Shown here one piece after another: positions 4,045-45,657 of a stretch of 60,000 nucleotides of DNA. How positions within the stretch are numbered: position 1 is the first letter of the stretch; each line of letters opens with the position of its first letter. This DNA is from Amphiscolops sp. MND2022 (lineage: Eukaryota), in assembly GCA_964187785.1 (NCBI GenBank), contig OZ076409.1, positions 31,932,001 to 31,992,000 of the forward strand, written 5' to 3'. The notes below the pieces were generated by a model. That model was not told the DNA's origin and made no database searches. It saw nothing but the letters and a program-made list of their open reading frames with translations. The position numbers and the translations under genes were made by a program.

Positions 4045-4064
4045 TTATTAAGTTTGAAAGTTTG

Positions 4065-5585: not shown

Positions 5586-5589
5586 TATG

Positions 5590-6122: not shown

Positions 6123-6139
6123 GGTTAAAATATAGATCT

Positions 6140-12100: not shown

Positions 12101-12369
12101 TCAGTTAGTTTGCATTTATGAATTTCAAATTTAGTACTATCTTTGTCATTGGTAGGTTTAACATCTACTTGATTTATTCTATTTTGTTGTCTGTTTTGTG
12201 AAGGTGTCCTAGATCGTGATCTGTAATCTCTTGGTTTGGATGGAGATCTATACGGGTAATTATGTCGTCTAAAGGAGTTTCCTTGTGATTGAGAACGAGA
12301 TCTATATCTTGATAGAGAATTGTATCTATAATTGGAGTTGTTTCTATATGGTGGTCTATAGGGAGATCT

Positions 12370-14270: not shown

Positions 14271-14276
14271 TGTTCT

Positions 14277-16396: not shown

Positions 16397-16661
16397 CCGT
16401 GTCAAGGGTGTTAGAAAACCTTGATAAACCGGACAAAACTGTTTCAACAAGCTTCCGGATAGGTGTGATAAATCAGTATGGAGAACAGAACTGTGTCACT
16501 GTGGATAAATCAGTCCAAAAAAGAGCAGAACTGTGTCACAATGGATAAATCAGTCTGAAAATATACCGTGTCAACGTGTTAGAAAACGTGATAAACCGGC
16601 AGGGCAAGAAGAATAGAAGAAAAACCGTGTCAACGTTTATAGAAAAACGTGATAAACCGGC
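16397..16661. repeat. Short direct repeats in the 5' leader of element C
   Basis: CCGTGTCAA..GTGTTAGAAAA..TGATAAACCGG three times (~16397, 16566, 16625) and CAGAACTGTGTCAC..TGGATAAATCAGTC twice. Confidence 0.75.
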
Positions 16662-16878
16662 TTTGAAGAATTTTTTGTTCTATTTCAAATAGAGACAATT
16701 TTTGTCTAACAATGATGTCTTTGTTGAAGAAATTCAAAAAGTCACAGACTATATTTTCTAGGAAATCTAGAAAAATGTCAATGCAATCGAAAAGAATTTC
16801 GAAGAGAAGAAGTGGTAGGTGTTGTATTGTTGAGAGAAAAGAAAGCATTCAACAAAGAAAGAAGAAATTTCACCAAAT

Positions 16879-17146
16879 TGTGCTGCTTTAAAGAGTCTAA
16901 TATTTTTATTTGGTGGTCTTTCATCTAGATGGTATAGGTCTAAGTCTTAGGACGATGCTAGCTAGCTGACTCTAATAAAGCTTGGAGGTCTGAAAGAAAG
17001 AAAAAGGAAGTCGACTAAACACTAATTATTAGTTTTCTCTCTTAGAGGGAGTTGAGTTTTACAGTCATTCAATATCAAATAAATGTTCATTCTAGAACAT
17101 TCTATAAACATCTAAATACTATTGGTTATTAATGTAGGTCAGTACA
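16879..17146 (-). repeat. 5' LTR of element C (268 bp)
   Basis: Minus strand TGTACTG...AATAAA...CAGCACA (TG..CA, 6/7 terminal inverted match), followed by ATT-TGGTG at the PBS position. Confidence 0.88.
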
Positions 17147-20100: not shown

Positions 20101-23100
20101 ACTAACGCTAAAACAAGCGTTTCCCTGCGTTTAAACCGTTTTTCAGCGAAAACGAGGTTAGATGCGCTAAAACGCGTTATTTCGCGCTAAAAACGCGTTT
20201 CATGCACACTATCGGTTTTAACACAATGGAAGCACTGGAAATGGTGCAAATGCATTAAATTATGCAGAACTAGGCTAATTGACGCTAAAACAAGAAATTC
20301 TCTGCGTTTAAACCGTTTTTCAGCGAAAACGACGTTAGATGCGCTAAAACGTGTTATTTCGCGCTAAAAACGCGTTTAATGCACACTATCGGTTTTAACG
20401 CAATAGAAGCACTGGAAATGGTGCAAATGCATTGAATTATGCAGAACTAGGCTAACCAACGCTAAAACAAGCGTTTCCCTGCGTTTAAACGCGTTTTTCA
20501 GCAAAAACGATGTTAGATGCGCTAAAACGCGTTATTTCGCGCTAAAACGCGTTTCATGCACACTATCGGTTTCAACGCAATGAAAGCACTGGGATTGGTG
20601 CAAATGCATTGAATTATGCAGAACTAGGCTAACTAACGCTATAACAAGCATTTCCTTGCGTTTAAACGCGTTTTTCAGCATAAACGACATTAGATGCGCT
20701 AAAACGCGTTATTTTGCGCTAAAAATGTGGTTTGTGCACACTATCGGTTTTGACGCAATGGAAGCACTGGAAATGGTGCAAATGCATTGAATTATGCAGA
20801 ACTAGGCAATTTAACGCTAAAACAAGCGTTTTCCTGCGTTTAAACGCGTTTTTCAGCAAAAACGACGTTAGATGCGCTAAAACGCCTTATTTCGCGCTAA
20901 AAACGCGTTTAATGCACACTATCGATTTTTACGCAATGGAAGCACTGGAAATGGTGCAAATGCATTGAATTATGCAGAACTAGGCTAACTAACGCTAAAA
21001 CAAGCGTTTCCCTGCGTCTAAACGCGTTTTTCAGCAAAAACGATGTTAGATGCGCTAAAACGCGTTATTTTGCGCTAAAAACGCGTTTTATGCACACTAT
21101 CGGTTTTAACGCAATGAAAGCACTGGAAATGGTGCAAACGCCTTGAAGTATGCAAAACTAGGCTAACTAACGCTAAAACAAGCATTTACCTGCGCTTAAA
21201 TGCGTTTTTCAGCAAAAACGACGTTAGATGCGCTAAAACGCGTTATTTCGCGCTAAAAACGAATTTTATACACACTACCGGTTCTAACGCAATGAAAGCA
21301 CTGGGAATGATGCAAATGCATTGAATCATGCTAGGCCACCTAACGCTAAAACAAGCGTTTCCCTGCGTATAAACGCGTTTTTCAGCAAAAACGACGTTAG
21401 ATGCGCTAAAACGCGTTATTTCGCGCTAAAAACGCGTTTTATGCTTACTATCGGTTTCAACGCAATGAAAGCACTGGGAATGGTGCAAACGCATTGAATT
21501 ATGCAGAACTAGGCTAACTAACGCTAAACAACTGTTTCCCTGCGTTTAAACGCGTTTTTCAGCAAAAACGACGTTAGTTGCGCTAAAACGCGTTATTTCG
21601 CGCTAAAAACGATTTTTATTCACACTACCGGTTCTAACGCAATGAAAGCACTGGGAATGATGCAAATGCATTGAATCATGCAAAACTAGGCCACCTAACG
21701 CTAAAACAAGCGTTTCCCTGCGTATAAACGCGTTTTTTTTAGCAAAAACGACGTTAGATGCGCTAAAACGCGTTATTTCGCGCTAAAAACGCGTTTAATG
21801 CTTACTATCGGTTTCAACGCAATGAAAGCACTGGGAATGGTGCAAACGCATTGATTCATGCAAAACTAGGCTAACTCACGCTAGAACAAGCATTTCTTTG
21901 CGTTTAAACGCGTTTTTCAGCAAAAACGACGTTAGTTGCGCTAAAACGCGTTATTTCGCGCTAAAAACGCGTTTTATGAACACTATCGGTTTTAACGCAA
22001 TGAAAACACTGGGAATGGTGCAAACGCATTGAAATATGCAGAACTAGGCTAACTAACGCTAAAATAAGCGCTTCCTTGCGTTTAAACGCGTTTTTCAGCA
22101 AAAACAACGTTAGATGCGCTAAAACGAGTTATTTCGCGCTAAAAACGAGTTTTATACACACTACCGGTTCTAACGCAATGAAAGCACTGAGAATGATGCA
22201 AATGCATTGAAGTACGCAACACTAGGCTAACTAATGCTAAAACAAGCGTTTCCTTGCGTTTAAGCGCGTTTTTCAGCAAAAACGACGTTAGATGCGCTAA
22301 AACGCGTTATTACGCGCTAAAAACGCGTTTTTTTGCACACTATCGGTTTTAACGCAATGAAAGCACTGGGAATAGTGCAAACGCATTGAATTATGCAAAA
22401 CTAGGCTAACTAACGCTAAAACAAGCATTCACCTGCGCTTAAATGCGTTTTTCAGCAAAAACGACGTTAGATGCGCTAAAACGCGTTATTTCGCGCTAAA
22501 AACGAATTTTATACACACTACCGGTTCTAACGCAATGAAAGCACTGAGAATGATGCAAATGCATTGAATTATGCAAAACTAGGCCAACTAACGCTAACAC
22601 AAGCGACGTTTCCCTGCGTATAAACGCGTTTTTCAGCAAAAACGACGTTAGATGCGCTAAAACGCGTAATTTCGCGCTAAAAAGGCGTTTTATGCACACT
22701 ATCGGTTTCAACGCAATGAAAGCACTGGGAATGATGCAAACGCATTGATTCATGCAAAACTAAGCTAACTAACGCTAGAACAAGCATTTCCTTGCGTTTA
22801 AACGCGTTTTTTAGCAAAAACGACGTTAGATGCGCTAAAACTTGTTTATTTGCTCTAAAAACGCGTTTTATGCACACTATCGGTTTTAACGCAATGGAAG
22901 CACTGGAAATGGTGCAAATGCATTGAATTATGCAGAACTAGGCTAACTAACGCTAAACAAGCGTTTCCCTGCGTGTAAACGCGTTTCCCAGCAAAAACGA
23001 CGTTAGTTGCGCTAAAACGCGTTATTTCGCGCTGAAAACACGTTTTATGCACACTATCGGTTTTAACGCAATGAAAACACTGGGAATGGTGCAAACGCAT

Positions 23101-25369
23101 TGAATTATGCAGAACTAGGCTAACTAACGCTAAAACAAGCACTTCCCTGCGTTTAAACGCGTTTTTCAGCAAAAACGACGTTAGATGCGCTAAAACGCGT
23201 TATATCGCGCTAAAAACGCGTTTTATGCACAATATCGGTTTAAACGCAGTGAAAGCACTGGGAATGGTGCAATTGCATTGAATCATGCAGAACTAGGCTA
23301 ACTAACGCTAAAACAAGCATTTCCCTGCGTTTAAACGCGTTTTTCAGCCAAAACAACGTTAGATGCGCTAAAACGCGTTAATTCGCGCTAAAAACGCGTT
23401 TTATGCACACTATCGGTTTTAACGCAATGAAAGCAGTGGGAATTGTGCAAACGCATTTAATTATGCAGAACTAGGCTAAATAAACGCTAAAACAGGCATT
23501 TCCCTGCGTTTAAACGCGTTTTTCAGCAAAAACGACGTTAGAAGCGCTAAAACGCGTTATTTTGCGCTAAAAACGCGTTTTATGCACACTATCGGTTTTA
23601 ACGCAATGAAAGCACTGGGAATTGTGCAAACGCATTTAAATATGCAGAACTAGGCTAACTAACGCTAAAACAAGCGTTTCCCTGCGTTTAAACGCGTTTT
23701 TCAGCAAAAACGACGTTAGATGCGCTAAAACGCGTTATTTCGCGCTAAAAACCCGTTTTTTATGCACAATATCGGTTTTAACGCAATGAAAGCACTGGGA
23801 ATAGTGCAAATGCATTGAATTATGCAAAAATAGGCTAAGTAACGCTAAAACAAGCGTTTACTTGCGTTTAAACCCGTTTTTCAGCAAAAATTGACGTTAG
23901 ATGCGCAAAAACGCGTTATTTCGCTCTAAAAACGCGTTTTATGCACGCTATCGGTTTTAACGCAATGAAAGCACTGGGAATAGTGCACACGCATTGAATT
24001 ATGCCGAACTGAGTAACTAACGCTAAAACAAGCACTTTCCTGCGTTTAAACGCGTTTTTCAGCAAAAAAGACGTTAGATTCGCTAAAACGCGTTATTTCG
24101 CGCTAAAAACGCGTTTTGTGCACACTAACAGTTTTAACGCAATGAAAGCACTGGGAATAGTGCAAATGCATTGAATAAAGCAGAACTAAGCTAACTAACG
24201 CTAAAACAAGCGTCTCTCAGCGTTTAAACGCGTTTTTCAGCAAAAACGACATTAGATGCGTTAAAACGCGTTATTTCGCGCTAAAAACGCGTTTTATGCA
24301 CACTATCGGTTTTAACGCAATGAAAGCACTGGGAATGGTGCAAATGCATTGAATTATGCAGAACTAGGCTAACTAACGCTAAAACAAGCATTTCCCTGCG
24401 TTGAAACGCGTTTTTCAGCAAAAACGACGTTAGATGCGCTAAAACGCGTTATTTCGCGCTAAAAACGCGTTTTATGCACACTATCGGTTTTAACGCAATG
24501 AAAGCACTGGGAATGGTGCAAATGCATTGAATAAAGCAGAATTAGGCTAGATAACGCTAAAACAAGCGTTTCTCAGCGTTTAAACGCGTTTTTCAGCAAA
24601 AACGACGTTAGATGCGCTAAAACGCGTTATTTCGCGCTAAAATCGCGTTTTATGCACACTATCGGTTTTAACGCAATGAAAGCACTGGGAATGGTGCAAA
24701 TGCATTGAATTATGCAGAACTAGGCTAACTAACGCTAGAACAAGCATTTCCCTGCGTTGAAACGCGTTATTCAGCAAAAAGGACGTTAGATGCGCTAAAA
24801 CGCGTTATTTCGCGCTAAAAACGCGTTTTATGCAAATTATCGGTTTTAAACGCAATGAAAGCACTGGGAATGGTGCAAATGCATTGAATAAAGCAGAACT
24901 AGGCTAAATAAAGCTAAAACAAGCGTTTCCCAGCGTTTAAACGCTTTTTCAGCAAAAACGACGTTAGATGCGCTAAAACGCGTTATTTCGCGCTAAAAAG
25001 CGTTTTATCCACACTATCGGTTTCAACGCAATGAAAGCACTGGGAATAATGCAAATGCATTGAAATATGCAGAACTAGGCTAACTAACGCTAAAACAAGC
25101 ACTTCCTTGCGTTTAAACGCGTTTTTCAGCAAAAACGACGTTAGATGCGCTAAAACGCGGTATTTCGCGCTAAAAACGCGTTTTATGCACACTATCGGTT
25201 TTAACGCAATGAAAGCACTGGGAATGGTGCAAACGCATTGAATTATGCAGAAATAGGCTAACTAACGCTAAAACAAGCTCTTCCCTGCGTTTAAACGCGT
25301 TTTTCAGCAAAAACGACGTTAGATACGCTAGAACGCGTTATTTCGCGCTAAAAACGCGTTCAATGCACA
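17147..25369. repeat. Satellite DNA, ~178-bp monomer (177-bp variant), about 46 copies, running into the gap
   Basis: ATGCACACTATCGG recurs at 19316, 19493, 19670 (177 bp) and 24296, 24474 (178 bp); monomers are more diverged in 17147-19000. Confidence 0.97.
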
Positions 25370-25569
25370 NNNNNNNNNNNNNNNNNNNNNNNNNNNNNNN
25401 NNNNNNNNNNNNNNNNNNNNNNNNNNNNNNNNNNNNNNNNNNNNNNNNNNNNNNNNNNNNNNNNNNNNNNNNNNNNNNNNNNNNNNNNNNNNNNNNNNNN
25501 NNNNNNNNNNNNNNNNNNNNNNNNNNNNNNNNNNNNNNNNNNNNNNNNNNNNNNNNNNNNNNNNNNNNN
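25370..25569. other. Assembly gap (200 N)
   Basis: Run of N; adjacency across it is not sequence-supported. Confidence 1.
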
Positions 25570-25902: not shown

Positions 25903-26622
25903 TGTAACGGCAAGTGCTAAGCATTTGTGACGTGACGATATAGTGGAGGAACTGGTACCATGGATAGGGTCCAGGAGAAACCACCACGATATCAGCTCAT
26001 TTTGTTCTCCTATGGTTAGCCGGTCCCGATGAGGGGAACCGTCCTTAAGGACGCTCTCTGGCCCAATACCAGATTGTAATTGCTAAGATTCACAAGTTTT
26101 GCCCTGATCTTTGCAGCCACAGTGAAAAAACGGCCTACACACAAACGGCAAAAACAGCAAGGTGAAAAATAGCTGTATTTCTCCAATGGGAATCTCATTA
26201 AATGCAATTCGAACATCAAAATAGCCCTCGAGCATATTAAAATCTAAATACACAAAAATCACAGAAAGTACGACAACAGAGTCCATTTTGGCGAGATTTG
26301 TGGATACTGGGACGGCATGGCACCAGCGTTCGAGCTGGGCACAACCCCTGGCATGAGTACAGTCCTCAGGCTGTCATGATGTTCCTGGGTTTAACACTGC
26401 AAAAAACTGTATTGCTGCAGGCAAACACAGTGGTTATGGCTTTTTGTTCTTTTCACTGGCAAAACTCGGTTGTTTCGCGTTCTTTCGGGGGCGGATTCTG
26501 TGACCGTCTTTCAACACGTTCTGCTGACAGGTACTTTGCAAAGTCATGATTGCGTGCCACGTCAGATTTGAACGAGTTTTTCAAAATGTGTCAAAATTTG
26601 TTGATAGCAGGATGCCGTTACA
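25903..26622 (-). repeat. 3' LTR of element A (720 bp)
   Basis: TGTAACGGCA...TGCCGTTACA with 10-bp terminal inverted repeat; preceded on the minus strand by PPT-like GGGGTGTGG; direct repeat of 44946-45657. Confidence 0.85.
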
Positions 26623-27399: not shown

Positions 27400-30300
27400 G
27401 ACTTATATCTGCTGCGGGGCAAGACCTCTGTAGGAGGTGAGGCAGCACTCACAGAAGCTCGTCTTGCAGGGGACGGCAAAAGGTCTCTGTATCCCTGTCG
27501 ATGGTTAGACCGTCAATGGGTTCGACCAGTGCTACATTGAGGTCAATTCCGCAGCGTGCTCCCCCGTCTGCTCTGGTGTCACCGGGGATCGGCTGGTTCA
27601 GTGGTCTCCACTTCATTCGGGGCTTCCACAGTCAATGGTTTTTTCAATAACATAGCCATGTTTGGGGCCGGTTTCTGTGTTGGTGGCTGCGCTAAGGCCC
27701 TAGCGCGCTCGGCATCAGCTCTGCTGTTGGCAGCAACTGCCACACCCTTAGATACCCATCCGGAGTGCTTCCCGAGCCCGCAGGTTCTTTTCCATGTCTC
27801 GAAACTGTTAAGCTCCAGATTCAGACATTCATCCTCCCACTCCGCGCTCAACTCAGTTTCAAGTACTGAATTGACGATGTCGTGCAGCACTAGCGGCATG
27901 TCACTACACTAGACTTGGTCATTCTCCCCTGGGAAGCCACGCAGGGTCATACTGTACGGGAGCCATCCTGTGAGACGTGAGACAAATTGCGCTGTCGCAG
28001 CTGGGCAGCTAACTCGATTCACAATTGAACGTCCGCGAAGTCCAAGTCTTGCAGCTGGTGGTACATTTATTCCTGTCCACAGCCAGTGGGACGCACACGA
28101 GAATAGCTCACGGGCTCTTTCCAATATCGGTTGGAGATTTGGATGAACACAAAGGAGTGGTTAAAGCGCGCATTAGGACTAGCCCTCAAGCTAGCGTTGA
28201 TCATTTTCTACAGAAGTTCAGTTGGCCACGGAAACCTGAAGGGTTTCCATCCAAGATCAAGAGGAGCAATGTACTAGTTCACTGCGCCGTATTCCTTGGG
28301 TAGAAAGCTCGCTTTGCGGGTGCGAGCTCTGATTACACCCATCATGTTTTCCTCAGACTGCTGTTGAGTTTTGATGGTGGTTTAGGCCTGTGGCACCTCA
28401 CTGCTGAGCTTTGAGTGAATCCGTAAATGTCCCAGCGGTCCAAAGTTCGGAATGAGAACTGGGGCAATGACAGGTAGCAGATCATCCTCTTCAGTCAGCG
28501 TAAGATCCGCTAGCTGCTGAGGCTTGGCCAATCAGCATTCTCGCTGAGAAGTTGTCTCCGGGTTGTGGAGCCCTTGTTCTTGGTCCACGCCCACAAACAA
28601 GCCAGACGCGAAGTCCAATGAGGAGTACAACTAGTCTGGCAGCAATGCCCGCAGCTTGAACAAGGGTTCCGTGTAATTTTGGTTGTTCTGCAGGAACAAC
28701 ACCTCGCCAAAATCGATTACGCCGCTCATTTCGTCATGCGCTAACACTAGGTACGTGTAGATTTCATACAGCTTCCCGGCCGCAACCATGTCAACCAAAA
28801 TGGCCAGTGGACCCGCCACGAACTTGGTGGGACTCAAAGCTAGCGCTAGAACTATCAGTTCATTGATGGTCTTTAACTCAAGCGTTTCGTGCAGTTTCTT
28901 CACTTGAGTTCTGTTCAACTTAAACTGATTCGGGATGACGTCTAAATTCCAGTTGAGGCCAAAACTTGTCATCAGGGCTGGAAATGATACAGACAGCGCG
29001 CGAGCTGCTGTTGGCAAAGTCACCGTTGCAAGCTGCGTTTGGTACCATTCTCCGTAAATGAGCTCGCAAGCTTGCACGGCTTGTTCCAGGACAACGGCTT
29101 CCTGGTCCACGATTTGCCGCAGACCCAAGGGCAACCTGGTGGCCTCAACGCTTTCAGCGAAATGGATATGGGGTTTTGTCCGCTCCACTTCTCGATTCGC
29201 AGGCCAGCGACCTATCTGGTCCCACACAGCTGCAAGGTCTGCCTTTACAGTGGTGGGGTGGCCCGGGCGCACTAGCCAGTAATACCTGTGGATGTTCTCT
29301 CGCTCTGCTTGCGTTGCTTCAGGAAGAAAACATTGCCCTCTTGATCAAATGTCAGTTGTCCAATTCGCATTCCTTGCTCGTAGTGAATGACATCATCCCA
29401 GGTCAACTGCTCGTTACCATTTCGCTCGGTAGACTGCAGCAGGCGGGATATGGCTGCCAGCTAGACGTGAGCGGACAACGCAGCAGAACGCAACTCATCT
29501 TGCCCAACGCGCAAGTTGGGTGCACCTATGTAGAAGTCGATTATGGGCTACGCACACCTCAGTTAGCATATAGACAAACTGCTGCAACGCCTTGCCACAT
29601 TACAACATGCTCGGGTGTGACACGAACAGCACTTGATTGTTCAACTGCGTACATAGAAGTTCTGTGGTCTTCTTCATTGCGGTTGCCACCGGTGCAGTAT
29701 GCGCGCCACTGCATTTCTGGCTGCCTCACGGTTGTTCTTATCACGCAAGGTTTGCGGCAGGTCATGAAGCAAGCCCTCACAAGCCAGTTGATCGATCAAG
29801 TTCGCAAAGAAGAATTTTTTTGGAGGTGGTTCCTTGAGGGAGCCCTGGCGCTCCGGAGTAAACATTGCTGCTGCCACTTCCGCCATTTCCTGATAGACGG
29901 GATAAGGGCATTGTCGCCACCATCACATCAGGCACAATGTTGTCGTTTGGCAAGTAAGAGGGAATCGTTGAGTTTACCATGACGCAATACTGGGTCCGTT
30001 GAACCAAGTTCTTCGGGATGGGCTTCACTGTTCTGCATTGGACGAAGATAATTGTCATGCTTCAGTGGCATTCAATCACGGACACGTATCTCCCAGACCT
30101 GTTCGCCAATATCCACATCAAACGCGCGCACTGGGCCACGACGGACAACTTCCGTATTTGAGTCTGGTCCGCATTGGACGGGGGAACCCGTTGTCGATCC
30201 TTAAACTGTGGTTCCGACAAGTAGGGTCTACCTGCCAGATGCGATTGGCATTCTTGGTAACTAACGAGGCGGCCACGTCCTCTGATGGTGGGAAGTAGGC

Positions 30301-30690
30301 CGATGCGCGGGACACAGCTTTAGACGTGGTTGTACTACGAGATGAGGAGGAGGCCGTGCCATCGAGCACGGAAGACGAACTTGGTGGATACTTGTCCAGT
30401 ACCTCTGGTGCTCCACCCTACCTCGTGCGCTTGTAGCCGGACAGCTCGGCAACTACTGATATTGCCGTGCTTGGCCGTGTCGGGCGCCTCCATTACTATC
30501 AGGCCGGCGATTGCGACAGGAAATATGTCTTTCCGCAGCCATTCTTCCAAATGCTGCGCCTGACTGATTCGCTGCCCTCGAGCAGCAGCATAAGAATGTG
30601 TGCAGCCAGCAGGCTCTAAATTGGAGGGCGGTGTGACCTCGAGCTTGATTGTAGGCCATTTTAGCATAGGTCTTAAAACATGTAGCCATT
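27400..30690 (-). pseudogene. Large (~1000+ aa) accessory ORF of element A, unknown function, broken; partial second copy at 32505-35345
   Basis: Collinear minus-strand fragments (30335..30667, 29674..29886, 28631..29272, 27579..27899) joined across stops and frameshifts; boundaries approximate. Confidence 0.55.
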
Positions 30691-30991
30691 AGACTTGTCA
30701 ATATAGTGGGCTCGACCAGATGCGTGTAGTTAGGTTTATACTACATGAAGTAATGGTAAGCTTCAAGGAGTCGCATACGGCACGCTAACTGTAATCTACA
30801 GATGAAACTTTAGGAAAAAGGAGAGGAGGTGCAATAGACGTCTCTACCGAAAAACTGAAAGAGGTACTAAACTACGGCTAACCAAAAGGTGTACTCAAAC
30901 GTTTTATGCAAAAGTAAGAAAACATATGTGATAGAAAGTATGGGGCACCTTCGGGGGCATTTTTTTACTCCCCTGTCTCAATACCCAGTAT

Positions 30992-31435
30992 CTACACATA
31001 CACGCGACTGTGTAAAATTACGTAGATGTTGGTCCCTGCAGACAGATCCATCATGACCTGGTACTGGTTGACCAACGAGTGAACTGGCCGTTCATGGTCC
31101 AGTATCGGAAAGTAAATGCTCGGCGCTCCCTTGTCGCCAAGCCATAGTGTCAATTTTTCTGGGTCGAGTAGAAATTCATCAGCTATCAGCGGCTCACGCT
31201 GATTAGCTCGTACTATCATCAAATTAATAGTCTGAGAAGGCTTGTTGGTTATGGAAGTCAGTGTCAAGACCTCGCCCACCCGTTGTCGTAAGGAAAAGAC
31301 TTGCTACTTGCCACACTCGCGCAACACGTAGCGTAGCGCATTAGAATTTGTTTACAAATCAGCTGGGCAGGCCAACGCGATGTCGCCTTCAGCCTGCAGG
31401 AAGTCAGGAATGTCATAAGAGATAAATTCCACCAA
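30992..31435 (-). pseudogene. Divergent TARG1/Poa1p-like macrodomain at the C-terminus of an accessory ORF (copy 1)
   Basis: One frame with two stops: VEFISYDIPDFLQAEGDIALACPADL*TNSNALRYVLRECGK*QVFSLRQRVGEVLTL...INLMIVRANQREP...IYFPILDHERP...TNIYVILH; pattern parallels TARG1 (LAHCISED, SGEVAVL, IYYLITK, LSMPRI, TDIKITVY). Confidence 0.55.
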
Positions 31436-34400
31436 ATTGGGACGTAGACTGCCAGGGTAGACGATCTTCCGTCCAGCTCGATTGTCAGGTGGTAAGCATA
31501 TACGCGGAGTGCAACCTTGCACTGCAGCCAAGTCCTGCCACACAGAAGGCGGCAGCGCTTGAATATCAGCATTTGCCGTGACCCAAGTGTCCAAAATGCT
31601 CAACGCTGCCTTGACAGGCAACGGATCCTCAAAGGCAAGTGTCCACTCGTCCAACAAGCGGACCCGCGGATAGCTGACGAAGCACGTTATGATTAGTTCT
31701 AGCCAACAGCTGAACTTCACCTTGCCTCGATACCAGACAATGAGGTGACAGCATAAGATCAAATCTTCCCTTATTGGAAGTCTTCAGACTTTCTAGGCAT
31801 GTGAGCATGTTTACCAATGTCTCCATTCGTGGTGGCGTGACTAGCAACCACCAATGCGGAGCAGGACTGTAAATACCACCCGGCTCGACCTGTAAACCAT
31901 ATTGGTCAAACAATAATGTCAGCGGTAATACATCGTGCCATATGCACTGGCTCTCGTTCAAAGTAAACCGTGGCCAAATACTGTTCACGGTAGTCAAAGT
32001 GAATTATATACCTTTGCCATCAATTCGTCCAATCCTTGAATCAAAGACATGGTGCTTACGCAACCCCAGACAATGCATTCTGCTGCAGAATCACCTCGAC
32101 CAAATAATTTTCCCTTCGTTTCACTCCCCAGAAAGTTTTCACTGCTCGTACCGTGATGCGATGGACAGAGTCCTCATTTCGTTGTCTCTCCGGGTGGACT
32201 CCCGGGGCTCCAGTGGGAACGTGGCGGTTCTCACTCACAGCGAAGACACAGTCACAATCGTGTAGTCCACATGTTCCTCATTTGTACCTAGGCTGGCGTT
32301 TTTGCTTCTACTGATACCGGTCCTGAGACCTTGTCTGAGTCTCGGTTCTTGCTGGCGGAGTCACCAGTTTGGCTTGCGTCTTCCTCTGCCGGAAAATTCG
32401 TGGTTTCTTACGGGGCCTTTTTGGAAGAAGGAGCGGTTGGGAGCTTAGGGGCAGAGCGCGAGCTACCAGCCACCGAAGGAGATGATGGACGGCCACAGAG
32501 ATGTCCCACTCCGCGCTCAACTCAGTTTCAAGTACTGAATTGACGATGTCGTGCAGCACTAGCGGCATGTCACTACACTAGACTTGGTCATTCTCCCCTG
32601 GGAAGCCACGCAGGGTCATACTGTACGGGAGCCATCCTGTGAGACGTGAGACAAATTGCGCTGTCGCAGCTGGGCAGCTAACTCGATTCACAATTGAACG
32701 TCCGCGAAGTCCAAGTCTTGCAGCTGGTGGTACATTTATTCCTGTCCACAGCCAGTGGGACGCACACGAGAATAGCTCACGGGCTCTTTCCAATATCGGT
32801 TGGAGATTTGGATGAACACAAAGGAGTAGTTAAAGCGCGCATTAGGACTAGCCCTCAAGCTAGCGTTGATCATTTTCTACAGAAGTTCAGTTGGCCACGG
32901 AAACCTGAAGGGTTTCCATCCAAGATCAAGAGGAGCAATGTACTAGTTCACTGCGCCGTATTCCTTGGGTAGAAAGCTCGCTTTGCGGGTGCGAGCTCTG
33001 ATTACACCCATCATGTTTTCCTCAGACTGCTGTTGAGTTTTGATGGTGGTTTAGGCCTGTGGCACCTCACTGCTGAGCTTTGAGTGAATCCGTAAATGTC
33101 CCAGCGGTCCAAAGTTCGGAATGAGAACTGGGGCAATGACAGGTAGCAGGTCATCCTCTTCAGTCAGCGTAAGATCCGCTAGCTGCTGAGGCTTGGCCAA
33201 TCAGCATTCTCGCTGAGAAGTTGTCTCCGGGTTGTGGAGCCCTTGTTCTTGGTCCACGCCCACAAACAAGCCAGACGCGAAGTCCAATGAGGAGTACAAC
33301 TAGTCTGGCAGCAATGCCCGCAGCTTGAACAAGGGTTCCGTGTAATTTTGGTTGTTCTGCAGGAACAACACCTCGCCAAAATCGATTTCGCCGCTCATTT
33401 CGTCATGCGCTAACACTAGGTACGTGTAGATTTCATACAGCTTCCCGGCCGCAACCATGTCTACCAAAATGGCCAGTGGACCTGCCACGAACTTGGTGGG
33501 ACTCAAAGCTAGCGCTAGAACTATCAGTTCATTGATGGTCTTTAACTCAAGCGTTTCGTGCAGTTTCTTCACTTGAGTTCTGTTCAACTTAAACTGATTC
33601 GGGATGACGTCTAAATTCCAGTTGAGGCCAAAACTTGTCATCAGGGCTGGAAATGATACAGACAGCGCGCGAGCTGCTGTTGGCAAAGTCACCGTTGCAA
33701 GCTGCGTTTGGTACCATTCTCCGTAAATGAACTCGCAAGCTTGCACGGCTTGTTCCAGGACAACGGCTTCCTGGTCCACGATTTGCCGCAGACCCAAGGG
33801 CAACCTGGTGGCCTCAACGCTTTCAGCGAAATGGATATGGGGTTTTGTCCGCTCCACTTCTCGATTCGCAGGCCAGCGACCTATCTGGTCCCACACAGCT
33901 GCAAGGTCTGCCTTTACAGTGGTGGGGTGGCCCGGGCGCACTAGCCAGTAATACCTGTGGATGTTCTCTCGCTCTGCTTGCGTTGCTTCAGGAAGAAAAC
34001 ATTGCCCTCTTGATCAAATGTCAGTTGTCCAATTCGCATTCCTTGCTCGTAGTGAATGACATCATCCCAGGTCAACTGCTCGTTACCATTTCGCTCGGTA
34101 GACTGCAGCAGGCGGGATATGGCTGCCAGCTAGACGTGAGCGGACAACGCAGCAGAACGCAACTCATCTTGCCCAACGCGCAAGTTGGGTGCACCTATGT
34201 AGAAGTCGATTATGGGCTACGCACACCTCAGTTAGCATATAGACAAACTGCTGCAACGCCTTGCCACATTACAACATGCTCGGGTGTGACACGAACAGCA
34301 CTTGATTGTTCAACTGCGTACATAGCAGTTCTGTGGTCTTCTTCATTGCGGTTGCCACCGGTGCAGTATGCGCGCCACTGCATTTCTGGCTGCCTCACGG

Positions 34401-35660
34401 TTGTTCTTATCACGCAAGGTTGGCGGCAGGTCATGAAGCAAGCCCTCACAAGCCAGTTGATCGATCAAGTTCGCAAAGAAGAATTTTTTTGGAGGTGGTT
34501 CCTTGAGGGAGCCCTGGCGCTCCGGAGTAAACATTGCTGCTGCCAATTCCGCCATTTCCTGATAGACGGGATAAGGGCATTGTCGCCACCATCACATCAG
34601 GCACAATGTTGTCGTTTGGCAAGTAAGAGGGAATCGTCGAGTTTACCATGACGCAATACTGGGTCCGTTGAACCAAGTTCTTCGGGATGGGCTTCACTGT
34701 TCTGCATTGGACGAAGATAATTGTCATGCTTCAGTGGCATTCAATCACGGACACGTATCTCCCAGACCTGTTCGCCAATATCCACATCAAACGCGCGCAC
34801 TGGGCCACGACGGACAACTTCCGTATTTGAGTCTGGTCCGCATTGGACGGGGGAACCCGTTGTCGATCCTTAAACTGTGGTTCCGACAAGTAGGGTCTAC
34901 CTGCCAGATGCGATTGGCATTCTTGGTAACTAACGAGGCGGCCACGTCCTCTGATGGTGGGAAGTAGGCCGATGCGCGGGACACAGCTTTAGACGTGGTT
35001 GTACTACGAGATGAGGAGGAGGCCGTGCCATCGAGCACGGAAGACGAACTTGGTGGATACTTGTCCAGTACCTCTGGTGCTCCACCCTACCTCGTGCGCT
35101 TGTAGCCGGACAGCTCGGCAACTACTGATATTGCCATGCTTGGCCGTGTCGGGCGCCTCCATTTCTATCAGGCCGGCGATTGCGACAGGAAATATGTCTT
35201 TCCGCAGCCATTCTTCCAAATGCTGCGCCTGACTGATTCGCTGCCCTCGAGCAGCAGCATTAGAATGTGTGCAGCCAGCAGGCTCTAAATTGGAGGGCGG
35301 TGTGACCTCGAGCTTGATTGTAGGCCATTTTAGCATAGGTCTTAAAACATGTAGCTATTAGACTTGTCAATATAGTGGGCTCGACCAGATGCGTGTAGTT
35401 AGGTTTATACTACATGAAGTAATGGTAAGCTTCAAGGAGGCGCATACGGCACGCTAACTGTAATCTACAGATGAAACTTTAGGAAAAAGGAGAGGAGGTG
35501 CAATAGACGTCTCTACCGAAAAACTGAAAGAGGTACTAAACTACGGCTAACCAAAAGGTGTACTCAAACGTTTTATGCAAAAGTAAGAAAACATATGTGA
35601 TAGAAAGTATGGGGCACCTTCGGGGGCATTTTTTTACTCCCCTGTCTCAATACCCAGTAT

Positions 35661-36104
35661 CTACACATACACGCGACTGTGTAAAATTACGTAGATGTTG
35701 GTCCCTGCAGACAGATCCATCATGACCTGGTACTGGTTGACCAACGAGTGAACTGGCCGTTCATGGTCCAGTATCGGAAAGTAATTGCTCGGCGCTCCCT
35801 TGTCGCCAAGCCATAGTGTCAATTTTTCTGGGTCGAGTAGAAATTCATCAGCTATCAGCGGCTCACGCTGATTAGCTCGTACTATCATCAAATTAATAGT
35901 CTGAGAAGGCTTGTTGGTCATGGAAGTCAGTGTCAAGACCTCGCCCACCCGTTGTCGTAAGGAAAAGACTTGCTACTTGCCACACTCGCGCAACACGTAG
36001 CGTAGCGCATTAGAATTTGTTTACAAATCAGCTGGGCAGGCCAACGCGATGTCGCCTTCAGCCTGCAGGAAGTCAGGAATGTCATAAGAGATAAATTCCA
36101 CCAA
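35661..36104 (-). pseudogene. Macrodomain-like region, copy 2
   Basis: Duplicate of 30992-31435 at +4669. Confidence 0.55.
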
Positions 36105-36976
36105 ATTGGGACGTAGACTGCCAGGGTAGACGATCTTCCGTCCAGCTCGATTGTCAGGTGGTAAGCATATACGCGGAGTGCAACCTTGCACTGCAGCCAA
36201 GTCCTGCCACACAGAAGGCGGCAGCGCTTGAATATCAGCATTTGCCGTGACCCAAGTGTCCAAAATGCTCAACGCTGCCTTGACAGGCAACGGATCCTCA
36301 AAGGCAAGTGTCCACTCGTCCAACAAGCGGACCCGCGGATAGCTGACGAAGCACGTTATGATTAGTTCTAGCCAACAGCTGAACTTCACCTTGCCTCGAT
36401 ACCAGACAATGAGGTGACAGCATAAGATCAAATCTTCCCTTATTGGAAGTCTTCAGACTTTCTAGGCATGTGAGCATGTTTACCAATGTCTCCATTCGTG
36501 ATGGCGTGACTAGCAACCACCAATGAGGAGCAGGACTGTAAATACCACCCGGCTCGACCTGTAAACCATATTGGTCAAACAATAAGGTCAGCGGTTATAC
36601 ATCGTGCCATATGCACTGGCTCTCGTTCAAAGTAAACCGTGGCCAAATACTGTTCACGGTAGTCAAAGTGAATTATATACCTTTGCCATCAATTCGTCCA
36701 ATCCTTGAATCAAAGACATGGTGCTTACGCAACCCCAGACGCTGCATTCTGCTGCAGAATCACCTCGACCAAATAATTTTCCCTTCGTTTCACTCCCCAG
36801 AAAGTTTTCACTGCTCGTACCGTGATGCGATGGACTGAGTCCTCATTTCGTTGTCTCTCCGGGTGGACTCCCGGGGCTCCAGTGGGAACGTGGCGGTTCT
36901 CACTCACAGCGAAGACACAGTCACAATCGTGTAGTCCACATGTTCCTCATTTGTACCTAGGCTGGCGTTTTTGCTT

Positions 36977-37606
36977 CTACTGATACCGGTCCTGAGACCT
37001 TGTCTGAGTCTCGGTTCTTGCTGGCGGAGTCACCAGTTTGGCTGGCGTCTTCCTCTGCCGGAAAATTCGTGGTTTCTTACGGGGCCTTTTTGGAAGAAGG
37101 AGCGGTTGGGAGCTTAGGGGCAGAGCGCGAGCTACCAGCCACCGAAGGAGATGATGGACGGCCACAGAGATGTTCGACACTATGGCCTGGTTTGGCCAGA
37201 TCGCGTAATTGCTGAGATAGTCGCTTAACGAAGGTTTCGGTAACATGGGCGATGACGTACCAACCAAAAATTGTGGTGGTGGGTAGTCGGAGGTTGACGG
37301 TTGGGAAGACGGCGAGCGCGCGGGTTCATTGTCAGAAAACAACTGCGGTAGGCAGTTCTGGAAGGAGGTGTCCGAGACCAGGTCTTCATCCTCAGGCTTA
37401 GGGTTTTGTTCAGCATGCACCTCAGGTTGGTTTAAATCTTGGGGATAAGCGCGCATTGGGAGCATGGCGTCATACAGCTCATCGTCCGTTCCAGAACTGG
37501 AATAGTCGAATTGGAGGTATTGCATTCGATAGCCATCAGCACGAAATCTAATACGGAGTCGAGTATCCATCCAATGGCGTCTGCGCGAATGCAAATTGTT
37601 CCACAC
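36977..37606 (-). pseudogene. Ser/Pro-rich upstream part of the macrodomain-bearing ORF, possibly a post-integrase pol extension of element A
   Basis: 209-aa ORF on the element strand directly after the break in element B pol; low complexity; no recognised domain. Confidence 0.4.
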
Positions 37607-37714
37607 TGCGGCGAATACCAGGCGACCTGTGTCTTTCCTGTATTAATGCCACAACCTTGCTGATATCTTGGTGTCCCGTTGCATCATGCGCGCGGAACCT
37701 AGTCTCTTGTTAGT

Positions 37715-40700
37715 ACCACTGGGGCAGCACAATCATGCAGGGTCGTTCCTGTAGCGAACGGTGAGAAGGGGGTACTTCACGCAGAGGACACCATCAGATT
37801 TGATGAACATTAAGTCCTTTTTCTGCTTGAAATAGTTACGCGCGAAGGCAAGTATGTCCTCCGGAAAGATGTCTTGATCGATGTTTTTGCGTTGGACCAG
37901 CGTTTTGGGGGCTAAAACATGAACATCACGGTTTTGAGGTAGCACCAAGTCTTTGATGCCATGGACTGTGTAGGCGTGCTCATGCAGGTCGGTGTCTAGT
38001 TCACAAATTGCCAGGATGGCTTGTCTAACATTGTTGGCGCGCAGGCGGTACGCGCGTAGGTGGTACGCGAAGCAACGTTGGTGACGTGTGTGGCAGCAAG
38101 TAGTCGTGACTGGCTTCCTAGGTTATGTCTATCTTCAGGATATTCGGGATAAAAGTTTTCATGAGCATGTAAGACAGGTGGAGAGGGCAAAGGGAGAGGA
38201 GCACGTAGTGCTTCCTTCTGCCGTTCTCGCCTTTTGGTCCGCTGAAAGCGACAAACAAGGCGGTGCACCGCCCTAGGAGGAGCAGGTTGCAAATGCCGTA
38301 AGTGCAAAGGTTGGTCTGGGTGTTTCGGGATGATCCGACCTTCTACATCGAATCACAGTTCAGTGGGTAACTGTTCATGTTCGTCTTGAGACAGGAAGTT
38401 CCATCTTTTGGCGACGGGTGGCAGATTCTCGAGCTGTTGTTCCAGCCAACGATAGTCATTGGTTCGTCATTTGGATCGACCATCAGCATTGCGATGCTGT
38501 GTTGGGGACAGTGCTCAACACAAAAGTGGTTCCTTTTGAGTATCATGATCCAACGACGAATGAGAGCTTGATCAGTGGAATAGGTCTTCAACCATGAAAA
38601 TGCATGGTTGTCCACCCTTGGAGTGAACTTTCGTGGGCACATGTAACTATGGTTTTATGGTTTTTGACAAAAAAGTGGTGGGAGGCATACATCTCCAGTT
38701 TGGGTGCACCGTACTTCGGATATGTTGCTGTTACCTTTTTGCTGCCGTAGACGATAAGTTTAAGGCGTCGGTTCCCAGTTGGACCTTGCCATTGGTGCAA
38801 GATGCCAGAGATTGTCACAGCGCTGGCCTTAGTGTCCAGTACATATTCGCCTTCTGAGTCTGGCTGTGCGAGAGCAGTCGCCTCAATCAAAGCGTTTTTG
38901 ATCTCGTTGTATTTGTGTTATTGTGCAGACCCCCATGCAAAACTGGCATTCAATACAGTGATGGCATGCCAATGTGCCATCAGTTTGGCGTGGTGCCAGG
39001 TAATAAACTCACGGTAGCAGTTAGCGGAGTTAAAAAAATTTTGCATTTCGGTTTTGTTACGAAGACTAGGGATAGGGTTTTACTCCTTCTGCGGAGACTA
39101 CTCGGCCCAAGTACTTGATCTCCGACTTCATGAAATCGCACTTGACCACCTGCTTCACGCATCTTGAAGCCCGCTTCACGCAAGCACTCAAAGACCTCGC
39201 GGAGTCAAACCATATGGTCCTCCGCAGTCTCAGTGGCAATCACGATGTCTCCAATGTATGCCATTACCATGCTGCCTTCCCGATTGACAATCTTGCGTAG
39301 CGCTCGAGCTATCGCTCACCGGAAGGTTGCGGAGGCATTGCACATACCAAAGCGCATGCGAAGAGACCCAATTCGCAGGCAAAGGCGGTTTTCTGGCGGT
39401 CAGCCTTTCTCACCGGGATTTGCCAGAATTGCCGGGGCCAGGTTAATACTTGTGTAGATTTTGGCTTTGCCTAACCTGGCCAGGCTTTAGTCAATTGTGA
39501 GAAGTGTGTACGCATCTTTGACGGTCAGCTTGTCTAGCGGACAAAAGTCGCTGCAAAACTGCATCGATTTTTCTAAATCAATACGATGCCACTGGCCCAG
39601 GTGGACAACGAAGGTTGGACAAACCCTAGAGCAGGCACTAAGTCTGACTTCTCAGGAGACCTCGCACCCTCACGATGTGGCCCGGCGCCTGGATCGACCT
39701 CTACGGGATACTTTGCAATGGTGCAGCTCTCGATGTCAGTCTTATGTTTCATGAACAAGTCATCGAAGTCGGTTAGGATGTTTTCTAAGGACGTGCTCGC
39801 CTCAGAGCCCCACAGGTCGTTTACTTCCTGGAGCTGAGATATAGGTATAGGAGCCAATAGCCCGGAATCGGTACGTTTCGTTTTTTTTTCGCGGTCCGAC
39901 AGACCTTCCTCTGTGGGATCGGTAGAAGACAAAAACTCGGATCCAGATGACGAAGTAAATAGTGAATCAGTACTGAGATTCATGGTTTCATATACTTTAC
40001 AAACAAAATCAACACGGTTTTTATCGACCTCAGTTTTGGGGTTGGTGCCAGTCAGCTGCTAGGGGACGGCACGGTAAACGAGGGATACGGGTACCACAGT
40101 GCCCCTGTGTGTCCCTCCACGGACGCGTTGTGGGTTGCTAACCAGTTTAATCACTCTGACAAAGAAGCGGCCTGTCTCACTGACAGCTGCGAGGCAGTCC
40201 TCTAAAAAGACAACATTCCACATGTGACGCGTCCGCGATAGCTGCATTTAATATCACATTTTGAAACACCAGTGGTTCTAGGTCAGAGGTTACTACTTTC
40301 GCCTTTACCACCATACGTTCAAAGGGTTGTAGCACTAAGTATTGGTCCAAAGCAACTGGGACCGCTAAAGTGGGATCACCTACCTCAGTATGTGCGTGAT
40401 GCCCGACAGGTTGTACCGACGCGCGCACCACGATCTTCATCAACGTTGAGTCCACGAGGACTTGATGCGCCCTCAGGAAGTTGCTACACAACAGGAAGTC
40501 CTCGACGCCCCTTTCGTCAACCACAACCACCGAGTTGGTCACCAGTTCCTAACCTCCTTCTTGGAAGCCCACACGTTCCGCTATTCCGAAGGATTGGATG
40601 GTTTTGCCGTAAGCGGCGTACAAATCAATCTGGTAGGGCTTCAACATCGCCCCGATTTGGACGGCGACACGGTCCAAAGCGAGGAATGTCAGAATCGACA

Positions 40701-41280
40701 CTCCTAATCCTGTGTCTACTAAGCCTCTCAGTGGAATGGTTGCCGCCTGGGGCACTACGAAGGAAACCACTATCGACGCACGCTGTTGTAGCATTCGAGC
40801 TTTTGTGGGCCCAGACAAACTCCAGGGGGAAATACGTCCACTACTACACAGGCTTCGAACTTCACGTCCACGCCGTACATGGTGGCGCAGATGGAACGGG
40901 CAAAAATGAGTGAGGGTGTCCGAATCCCCGGGAGCGTGCACTTTTTGGGCCGCGGGATCTTATTTTTCTTGTAGAGAAAAGCCAGCTCAGCCCAAAGTTT
41001 TCCCAAGGTTACCGTTGGGCGACGTTGTTGCTCAGCTGCCAGCAATAAGTGAATGGATATGATGGTGCGACATGGCGCGTCGAACGCTGAAGGCTCCGAA
41101 CACGTTGAACTTGTTTTGAACCACAACTGATGGTCAAGGGCGTGTAGAAGGCTGGTTGCTCTGCTGGGTGGAGCATCAACACTCGGTCGTTTTCCAAGGG
41201 TAACCTATGTGCAGCCACCCCCGCTACTTCCGTTTCCGCCCAGTGGCTATAGGCGAAATCATCACTCACAGGGTTTTCCA
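37715..41280 (-). pseudogene. pol: Gypsy pol of element B (protease, RT, RNase H; integrase core missing)
   Basis: LVDTGLGVSIL protease; STWASGIVLI, KDAYTL and AYIGDIV (degenerate YxDD) RT; YVLDTKAS, ISGILHQ and KLEMYA RNase H; ends at PCMIVLPQ just before the integrase zinc finger. Confidence 0.85.
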
Positions 41281-42530
41281 CTCACTGTGACGCCACATGG
41301 TCAACCATGCCACAGTTGACACAAAAGCCTACTCTGGAAAAATTCTCCGCAACACGTTCAATGATATTTCTGTCCTTGTCTTCACTGCCTCAGGTTCAGG
41401 CAGCACCGTTGGCTTGCGGGCCCGATCACTGTTAGGACAGTCACGAGCAAAGTGACCAGTTTGTCCACAGTTGAAACAAGCGCCCAGTGGAGCACGCACG
41501 GCAGTTGGTGCAGCTACAAGATTCGATGGCGCATTACTAGGTGGAGGTGGTGGCAACAAGCCTTGTGGCAGCACCATCTTATTAGGTTGCAAACGTTCAA
41601 AAATATGAGGCCTCGACCTCATAGCATACCGAGGGTCATAGGGTTGCGATTGCTTGGGACGGTTTCGTTGCAACTGTCGGGTAGTGAACCTCAAAGATTC
41701 CACAGGGGGGAATGGTGGTCACGGTAGTCTCTGACGCATAGATGATGAAGCGTTCACGCCGTAGGGTTGAATTCCGGAGCCCTCTATGAAGCGCTGCAAA
41801 ATTTCAAAGCGCTTGGTTATGATCGGTTCATCAGGGAACCCGTGACTACGCAGCCCTTCCAAGGCATCCAGATATTGCATCTAGTCCTCCTTTTCCAGCT
41901 GGTACCGGGATGCGAAGGCCTGGCGCACTTACCAAATCGACTGGCCACTAGTTCGAATACCTTCTCAGTCGTGTCCCGTCCGGACTGTGCCTTCTTGATG
42001 ATATAATTACGGGCTTCACCCTCTAGGTGACCAATAATACTGCATGCTTTATCGACGAGAGTTGTTTTGGATAGTGTTCTTTGCAAATATCAACGCATGA
42101 CGAGTATCCAACCGTCAATCGAGCCTTTCTTGGACCCACGATAGACCCTAGGCCTGGCCTGTGATGGGTCACGACCAGCCAGTAGTAGAGGAGCTAACTC
42201 CTTTGACATCGCCTTAGATATCGCAGCGGTGAATCGCAGTTGCTCGGGGAGATGGCCTCACCCTCATCACTGGCAACGGGCGAGTTGTCTCTGCTTCCTC
42301 TGGTGGTCTGGATTGATAGGGCTCCACCACATGATCCTCTTCACGCGTACTACTGGCGCAAGTGTTGCCCGCGAGCACCCCTTAACTAGCAGTCATATAT
42401 CAGGAATCGGTTTCGGTCACTCGTGCTTTAGCAGTAGCGTAAGTGTTGTCTTTCACAATGCTAGCGTGAGATCCAGCCGTGGCCTTCGTATCACTTAAGT
42501 CCAAGGTGGAAGACGTTGTCGTCATGGGGT
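41281..42530 (-). pseudogene. gag: Gypsy gag of element B
   Basis: IDGWILVMR, IIGHLEGEARNYII, CCHC knuckle CFNCGQTGHFARDC and a second degenerate knuckle CVNCGMVDHVASQ. Confidence 0.82.
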
Positions 42531-44945: not shown

Positions 44946-45657
44946 TGTAACTAAACCCAAACGTTTGTGACGTCACGATACAGTAGAGGAACTGGTACCA
45001 TGGATATGGTCCGGGAAGAACGACCACGATATGAGCTCATTTTGTCCTCCTAAGTATGAGCGGTCCCGAGGAAGGTGAACGCTCTTCAAGGACGCTCTCT
45101 GACCTGATACCAATCTGTAATTGCTAAGATTCACGGGTACTGCCAGAAATTCGCAGCCCCCGGGTAGATAGTCTACAAAAACGGCAAGGTCGTTAATAAC
45201 TGAAGTTCTCCAGTGGGAATCTGAGTAAATGCAATACGAACTTGAAAATATCCCTCGATCATATTATAATCTAAATACACAAAAAGCACACAAAGTACGA
45301 TAACAGAGTCCAGTTTGGCGAAAGCTGTGGATAAAGGGGCGGCATGGTACCAGCGTTCGAGCTGGGCACAACCCCTGGGCACGGGTACATTCATCAGGCT
45401 GTTATGATGTTCCTGGGTTTAACACTGCAAAAAACTGGATTTCTGCAGGCAAACACCGTGGTTATGACTTTTTTTTGGTTCTTTTCACTGGCAATACTCG
45501 CGATTGTTTCGCGTTCTTTCGAGGACGGCTTCTTTCACCGTCTTTCAACACGTTCTGCTGACAGGTATTGCGCAAAGGCATTCTTGGGTGCCACGTCAGA
45601 TTTGAACGAATTTTTCAAAAAGCGTCAAAATTTTGTTGAAAACAGGATGCCGTTACA
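44946..45657 (-). repeat. 5' LTR of element A (712 bp)
   Basis: TGTAAC...GGATGCCGTTACA; alignable along its length to 25903-26622, roughly 80% identical by eye. Confidence 0.85.

What the first reader, a model, noticed from the sequence alone, without database searches (positions are those of the whole stretch)
30992..31435. LTR retrotransposon cargo: divergent TARG1/DarG-like macrodomain
Seen: reading through two stops gives ~145 aa whose hydrophobic pattern and landmarks (IALACPADL, VGEVLTL, INLMIVRA, IYFPIL, TNIYVILH) line up with TARG1/Poa1p-type macrodomains; the Gly-rich loops and the catalytic Lys appear substituted. Established: viral macrodomains counter PARP-mediated ADP-ribosylation defences. 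Inference: the element may carry an ADP-ribose-binding or decoy domain against host defence, as part of an uncharacterised accessory module.
Basis: inference. Interest (0 to 1): 0.72.

Follow-up and report, generated by a model that had tools for sequence, protein, structure and literature searches.

The report
Retrotransposon integrase with twin dead macrodomains
This broken jumping-gene copy belongs to a family whose integrase protein ends in two copies of an ADP-ribose-removing enzyme fold that have lost their working pocket, probably reused as a grip on chromatin or another partner rather than as an enzyme or decoy.

Summary
The fold call is right; the context and function need revising. 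The stretch is a TARG1/DarG-type macrodomain. An intact database relative folds to TARG1 (Foldseek E 2.8e-7; VIA Z 14.4), and a family profile hits TARG1 by sequence (E 3e-5). It is not a separate cargo gene. In intact relatives it is the last domain of the Ty3/Gypsy Pol polyprotein: integrase, linker, AT-hook, Cys motif, M1, M2. Both pockets are rebuilt. In M2, Lys84 is Arg in 83 of 89 domains and Gly123 is Glu in 71 of 86, the substitution that abolishes ADP-ribose binding in TARG1. Both domains are nonetheless conserved above the neighbouring low-complexity linker. The window copy is dead: three stops in M2, frameshifts in M1, no integrase core, and it lies in a 4,669-bp tandem duplicate. 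Best reading: an ADP-ribose-independent tethering module at the position chromoviruses use for a chromodomain. Function untested. Macrodomains in retroelements are known; I did not find this architecture in print.

The parts
30986..31441 (-). M2: TARG1/DarG-type pseudo-macrodomain, duplicate copy (the finding); premature stops at 31352-31354, 31304-31306, 30992-30994
   Evidence: tblastn of intact relative P0014 residues 273-425, 57.5% identity, E 2.5e-51; stops; fold of P0014
31445..31633 (-). M1-M2 connector, about 65 aa, two predicted helices
   Evidence: tblastn; helices 187-201 and 211-221 in the P0081 model
31640..31962 (-). M1: shortened TARG1-type macro fold, split over three frames in this copy
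   Evidence: tblastn pieces in frames -1, -2, -3; fold of intact relative P0081
32206..32361 (-). Cys motif (CxxC...CxC, putative zinc site), broken by stops, and the stretch before it
   Evidence: tblastn; 86-100% identical between subfamilies; zinc binding is inference
27835..32504 (.). Tandem duplicate unit (4,669-bp period) holding the finding: Pol tail plus accessory region
   Evidence: 25 mismatches in 4,670 bases; same stops in both copies
35655..36631 (-). M1-M2 copy that is continuous with pol (M2 35655-36110, M1 36309-36631), equally broken
36581..37630 (-). Integrase-distal linker running in one frame into the start of M1
   Evidence: one tblastn HSP, frame -3, P0230 residues 1210-1566
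37593..41176 (-). Decayed pol: protease region, RT, RNase H, integrase zinc finger; about 350 codons of integrase core and C-terminal domain absent
   Evidence: tblastn of P0230 and P0235: P0235 residue 747 at 37593 is followed by residue 1094 at 37630; Pfam on those relatives; RT_RNaseH hit
41329..41718 (-). gag zinc knuckle
   Evidence: Pfam zf-CCHC E 1.6e-9
44946..45657 (-). 5' LTR
   Evidence: 82.8% identical to the other LTR over 708 columns; TGTAAC/GTTACA ends
25903..26622 (-). 3' LTR, preceded on the minus strand by a purine-rich tract
27652..30900 (-). Accessory region between pol and the 3' LTR with long degenerate frames of unknown identity
   Evidence: no meaningful Pfam hit in three minus frames; ORF hits at chance level

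Best explanation
The stretch is a dead copy of the last domain of a Ty3/Gypsy Pol polyprotein. An ancestor of this element family captured a TARG1/DarG-class macrodomain at the end of pol (shown: fold, position). It was duplicated into M1 and M2 (supported by profile match; capture of two separate genes is not excluded). Both lost hydrolase and canonical ADP-ribose-binding residues but stayed folded and conserved (residues shown; loss of activity inferred from TARG1 mutants). Most likely the pair, with the neighbouring AT-hook and Cys motif, stays on or works with integrase as an ADP-ribose-independent tether to chromatin, nucleic acid or a host protein, helping the integration complex reach its target, as the chromodomain does at this position in chromoviruses (inferred, untested).
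For: Position: of 19 longer relatives, 12 carry the integrase C-terminal motif plus M1 and M2 in one chain, 2 of these 12 also the integrase core motif, and 3 more run from the core into M1. Fold: TARG1 first for M2 (E 2.8e-7; Z 14.4, rmsd 2.5, 134 aligned) and M1 (E 6.3e-6; Z 11.3, rmsd 3.6, 122 aligned). M1 vs M2 profile match 80%, score 38, against at most 1.8% and 18.6 for 30 column shuffles and 0.1% reversed. Pocket: Lys84 is Arg in 83 of 89, Gly123 Glu in 71 of 86, Gly121 Asp in 77 of 85, Asp125 Pro in 68 of 83, Gly43 Ala in 75 of 85. G123E TARG1 loses ADP-ribose binding and catalysis, stays stable and still binds RNA (PMC5928194). Conservation between subfamilies: M1 87-90%, M2 80-86% (one 72-column pair 67%), integrase 85-94% (one pair 68%), low-complexity linker 62-69%. 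Chromatin-reader fusions at Gypsy C-termini have precedent (bioRxiv 10.1101/2021.11.30.470311, passages).
Against: No binding, localisation or insertion-site data. About 350 mostly low-complexity residues separate integrase from M1, so the element's protease could release the tail as a separate protein. M1 and M2 are mildly acidic (pI 5.7), which argues against plain nucleic-acid binding. The adenine-binding Asp20 is kept in M2 (75 of 84), so a rebuilt nucleotide site is possible. No single database protein spans RT to the end of M2; continuity rests on overlapping chains. The conservation figures are a protein-level proxy from non-independent pairs, not dN/dS, and M2 barely exceeds the acidic linker (76-81%). 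The 430-residue model has mean pLDDT 49 (M2 blocks mostly 60-86), so pocket geometry is not resolved.
Confidence: 0.45

Rival explanations
1. The tail is cut from Pol and acts as a separate ADP-ribose-independent adaptor for RNA structure, translation, particle assembly or anti-silencing, like the tandem non-ADP-ribose-binding macrodomains of the SARS-unique domain.
For: Same dead-pocket evidence; long flexible linker; SUD chains appear among the weaker fold matches (8ufm Z 7.8, 6yxj Z 7.0). SUD functions are recalled, apart from the Paip1 complex named in the PDB title.
Against: An AT-hook sits just upstream in most long relatives (15 of 19), pointing to DNA or chromatin. The SUD match is only the shared fold, well below TARG1.
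Confidence: 0.25
2. M2 still reads ADP-ribose or PAR through a rebuilt pocket, either steering integration to PARylated chromatin at DNA breaks or soaking up PARP signals.
For: Asp20, Pro35, Asp37, Arg84, Asp121 and Arg124 positions stay conserved in members down to 24-30% identity. Tandem macrodomains are ADP-ribose readers in PARP14 (4d86 aligns over both domains). Fish ERVs carry macro domains (PMC4977317).
Against: Natural Glu at Gly123 and loss of the Gly41/Gly43 loop; G123E abolishes binding in TARG1. M1 has lost most of that loop and helix.
Confidence: 0.2
3. M2 is an active TARG1/DarG-like hydrolase that removes ADP-ribose from element proteins or cDNA.
For: Closest folds are TARG1 and DarG, which remove ADP-ribose from DNA (PMC8501950).
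Against: Catalytic Lys84 is Arg in 83 of 89 and Lys in 1 of 25 non-redundant members; Asp125 is absent from the five commonest residues. K84A TARG1 is inactive.
Confidence: 0.04
4. The tail is a functionless hitchhiker kept only because it is in frame.
For: Many database relatives are fragments or end early.
Against: M1 is as conserved as integrase and both domains exceed the low-complexity linker. M1 folds confidently (core blocks pLDDT 77-97). Motifs persist at 24-30% identity.
Confidence: 0.06

Closest known systems
TARG1/OARD1/C6orf130 (PDB 4J5S, 2LGR), DarG (5M3I, 5M31) and Poa1p (6LFQ) macrodomain class
   Same: Fold and element order for both M1 and M2; sequence link through the family profile and P0213; Asp20 kept in M2
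   Different: Catalytic Lys84 and Asp125 and both Gly loops replaced; M1 about 30 residues shorter; tandem; fused to Pol
Chromoviruses (Ty3/Gypsy elements with a C-terminal chromodomain, e.g. MAGGY)
   Same: Extra folded domain at the C-terminus of integrase after the GPY/F region (precedent)
   Different: No chromodomain by Pfam; domain is a macro pair; targeting not shown
Epsilon-like fish endogenous retroviruses with macro-domain ORFs (Basta et al. 2009, seen only as cited in PMC4977317)
   Same: Macrodomain carried by an LTR retroelement
   Different: Retroviridae, described as additional ORFs; here Ty3/Gypsy, in Pol, duplicated, pocket lost
SARS-unique domain (coronavirus Mac2-Mac3)
   Same: Tandem macro folds in a viral polyprotein that no longer bind ADP-ribose (that property is recalled)
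   Different: Different macrodomain class and origin; weak fold score (Z 7.0-7.8); analogy only

Membership tests
TARG1/DarG/Poa1p-class macrodomain | Macro alpha/beta fold closest to TARG1/DarG | tested here: met
   Models of intact relatives: M2 Z 14.4, rmsd 2.5, 134 aligned; M1 Z 11.3, rmsd 3.6, 122 aligned; Foldseek. The window copy itself was not folded.
TARG1/DarG/Poa1p-class macrodomain | Detectable sequence homology to TARG1 | tested here: met
   M2 profile E 3.3e-5; distant member P0213 E 4.2e-9. Window protein alone: no hit; close-family profile: no hit.
Active TARG1/DarG hydrolase | Catalytic Lys (TARG1 K84, DarG K80) | tested here: not met
   Arg in 83 of 89 M2 domains and in the window copy; Ala in 64 of 76 M1 domains; K84A inactive
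Active TARG1/DarG hydrolase | Asp125 (role recalled, not read here) | tested here: not met
   Pro in 68 of 83
ADP-ribose-binding macrodomain | Gly-rich diphosphate loops (G41/G43; G121/G123) | tested here: not met
   G43 is Ala in 75 of 85, G121 Asp in 77 of 85, G123 Glu in 71 of 86; G123E loses binding
ADP-ribose-binding macrodomain | Adenine-binding Asp (TARG1 D20; role recalled) | tested here: met
   Asp in 75 of 84 M2 domains and in the window copy; not evident in M1
ADP-ribose-binding macrodomain | Measured ADP-ribose or PAR binding | not testable with these tools
   needs a bench assay
Ty3/Gypsy LTR retrotransposon | LTRs, gag, and pol order PR-RT-RH-IN | tested here: met
   the integrase core is missing from this copy but present in relatives
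Ty3/Gypsy LTR retrotransposon | Target-site duplication and primer-binding site | tested here: inconclusive
   Flanks share only three bases and no clear primer-binding site was seen by eye
Chromovirus | Chromodomain at the integrase C-terminus | tested here: not met
   No chromo family in Pfam scans of P0230, P0235, P0227; tail folds as macro domains
Chromovirus-like targeting | C-terminal domain directs insertion sites | not testable with these tools
   no genome held

The most novel reading that the evidence does not exclude
A Ty3/Gypsy lineage evolved a new kind of integration-targeting reader from a captured, duplicated TARG1-class enzyme. The rebuilt M2 pocket (kept Asp20; new invariant Arg, Asp, Arg) recognises a chromatin mark or modified nucleotide, possibly ADP-ribosylated chromatin or DNA, and tethers integrase to it.
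Probability: 0.25. Interest if true: 0.82.

Novelty: new variant of a known kind. Interest (0 to 1): 0.57.

Why it matters
Integrase tails decide where LTR elements land, and the known readers there are mainly chromo and PHD domains. A tandem pseudo-macrodomain would add a new class. It is also a natural experiment in enzyme-to-binder conversion: the family has fixed the very substitution (G123E) that biochemists use to kill TARG1 binding, yet keeps the domain. It is invisible to Pfam (0 of 70 members hit Macro), so similar tails may be overlooked elsewhere. The window copy itself is a pseudogene and matters only as a pointer to the family.

Tried and rejected
Direct Pfam and PDB sequence searches with the window protein and the close family found no macrodomain; only distant members and folds revealed it. 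The Atlas feature search gave leads only: Macro cluster at 0.78 (11% of members) for a whole relative and 0.89 (93%) for M2. No related loci in viral or metagenome contigs. No genome is held, so no copy census, dN/dS or insertion-site analysis was possible. No sequencing run was listed, so expression and the reality of the 4,669-bp duplication are untested. Cluster look-up could not be made. No longer relatives of distant member P0198 were found, so whether P0198 and P0213 are retrotransposon-borne is unknown. Stand-alone cargo ORF rejected. Stop-codon read-through or an alternative code rejected: intact relatives have ordinary residues there and the copy also has frameshifts. Literature searches: macrodomain+LTR retrotransposon+Gypsy, 0 papers; macro domain+retrotransposon+integrase+C-terminal, 1; TARG1+retrotransposon, 7; macro domain or macrodomain+retrotransposon, 21 and 42 (20 and 30 listed). 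Judged from listings, none describes this architecture; most subscription journals, Repbase and GyDB are not covered. A paper search on a guessed host lineage gave nothing useful; the host is not identified. No complex prediction was run.

Full report
Observation. It has three premature stops (31352-31354, 31304-31306, 30992-30994); similarity to intact relatives runs past the third to 30971, and the next stop is at 30965-30967. The frame continues upstream to 31783. Read with X at the stops, this 264-residue protein has no Pfam hit and no relevant PDB sequence hit, but finds 70 database proteins at 56-73% identity among 438 candidates. A profile search found 278 representatives at E<=0.001, of which 150 were listed.

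The element. The stretch lies in a decayed LTR retrotransposon on the minus strand. Its LTRs are at 44946-45657 and 25903-26622, 82.8% identical over 708 columns. It has a gag zinc knuckle and protease, RT, RNase H and the integrase zinc finger in Ty3/Gypsy order. About 350 codons of integrase are missing from this copy. Bases 27835-32504 are repeated at a 4,669-base period with 25 mismatches in 4,670. The finding is in the downstream duplicate; the copy continuous with pol is at 35655-36110. Both have the same stops, so the duplication came after inactivation or is an assembly artefact; I could not tell which. The host is not identified.

It is the end of Pol, not a cargo gene. A search for longer relatives returned 19 proteins. 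Twelve carry the integrase C-terminal motif and both macro-type domains in one chain; two of those twelve also carry the integrase core motif; three more run from the core into the first domain (motif counts; sequences of nine of them; Pfam on three). No single protein spans RT to the last residue, so the full order rests on overlaps: integrase, acidic and low-complexity linker, AT-hook, Cys motif, about 85 residues, M1, 65-residue connector, M2, stop. In the window, one frame runs from the linker into M1 (36581-37630).

Fold. I folded natural intact relatives, not the window copy. The 430-residue P0014 model (mean pLDDT 49) matches TARG1 first in Foldseek (E 2.8e-7, TM 0.78 on the target) and in an independent search of 48,161 chains (TARG1 Z 14.4, rmsd 2.5, 134 aligned; DarG 13.6; Poa1p 11.8; model range 274-420). 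Sequence agrees: a 26-sequence M2 profile that includes the window protein hits TARG1 at E 3.3e-5, and distant member P0213 at E 4.2e-9. The model showed a second alpha/beta domain upstream. Folded in P0081 (mean pLDDT 73), it also matches TARG1 first (E 6.3e-6; Z 11.3, rmsd 3.6, 122 aligned). M1 and M2 profiles match each other at 80% probability, score 38, against at most 1.8% and 18.6 for 30 column shuffles and 0.1% for the reversed alignment. M1 lacks most of the first Gly loop and the following helix.

Pocket. TARG1 numbering was fixed from the printed alignments and the G43/I44/G123 numbering in PMC5928194. I counted 89 M2 and 76 M1 domains covering at least 70% of the profile among 235 stored proteins; shorter hits were dropped, and gaps are excluded from denominators. 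In M2, Lys84 is Arg in 83 of 89, Asp125 Pro in 68 of 83, Gly121 Asp in 77 of 85, Gly123 Glu in 71 of 86, Gly43 Ala in 75 of 85; Asp20 is kept in 75 of 84. In the 25 members at most 62% alike: Arg 21 of 25, Asp121 18 of 21, Glu123 13 of 22, Asp20 17 of 22. The window copy follows the family at Lys84, Gly121, Gly123, Asp125 and Asp20, and has Asn at Gly43. In M1 the Lys84 position is Ala in 64 of 76. PMC5928194 (passages) reports that G123E TARG1 is stable, does not bind ADP-ribose, is inactive, and still binds RNA. PMC8501950 (passages) names K84 as catalytic. So hydrolase activity is very unlikely and canonical ADP-ribose binding unlikely. Against this, Asp20 and several new polar pocket residues persist in members only 24-30% identical, which leaves a rebuilt site open.

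Selection. No DNA of relatives was available, so I compared protein identity by region in seven between-subfamily pairs: integrase 85-94% (one 68%), M1 87-90%, M2 80-86% (one short pair 67%), Cys motif 86-100%, acidic linker 76-81%, low-complexity linker 62-69%. The pairs are not independent and this is not dN/dS, but it argues that M1, and less clearly M2, are maintained.

Mechanism. Shown: fold, tandem arrangement, fusion to Pol, pocket substitutions, decay of this copy. Inferred: function. I put 0.45 on an ADP-ribose-independent tether for the integration complex, because the pair sits where chromoviruses carry their chromodomain and next to an AT-hook (precedent in bioRxiv 10.1101/2021.11.30.470311, passages); 0.25 on a released adaptor like the SARS-unique domain; 0.2 on a rebuilt ADP-ribose reader or decoy; 0.04 on an active hydrolase; 0.06 on a relic. 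The mildly acidic domains (pI 5.7) and the long cleavable-looking linker are the main points against the first.

Known and new. Macro domains in LTR retroelements are known from fish epsilon-like ERVs (PMC4977317, passage citing Basta et al. 2009; the original was not read). A toad ERV Gag protein is among the viral fold matches (rank 21). An earlier unchecked note of this scan describes a bacterial-type macrodomain after gag in another Gypsy family; I did not test it. PMC8195603 (passages) was not relevant. My searches (listings only unless stated) showed no tandem, pocket-dead TARG1-type pair on a Gypsy integrase; the library lacks most subscription journals and the TE databases, and no supplements were read.

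Verdict. A real, under-annotated feature: a new variant of macrodomain capture by retroelements, seen here in a dead duplicate copy. Interest 0.57.

Noticed in passing
window 17148-25300: About 178-bp tandem satellite, up to 46 copies counted, ending at an N gap (25370-25569) about 330 bp from the element's 3' LTR. Fits heterochromatin insertion but is a single case.
   Followed up: no
window 5313-17146: A second, AT-rich Gypsy-like element (RNase H, integrase) on the minus strand, bracketed by 274-bp inverted repeats at 5313-5585 and 16889-17146 (86%); no direct LTRs found by self-BLAST of 1-17700.
   Followed up: partly
window 27652-30900 and its duplicate: About 3 kb of accessory sequence after pol with a long degenerate minus-strand frame ending near 27800; no meaningful Pfam hit.
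   Followed up: partly
window 27835-37173: 4,669-bp tandem duplication at 99.5% identity with about 1 base of microhomology at the junction; real or assembly artefact is unresolved.
   Followed up: partly
P0213, P0198: Distant single-macro relatives closer to TARG1 (Gly kept at position 123, Arg at 84) with no M1 upstream; possible intermediates, context unknown.
   Followed up: partly
P0081: A relative that lacks the roughly 80 residues between the Cys motif and M1 in frame, suggesting that segment is dispensable.
   Followed up: no
window 226-990 (+) and 2609-3841 (-): ORFs of 254 and 410 codons with only chance-level or no Pfam hits.
   Followed up: no
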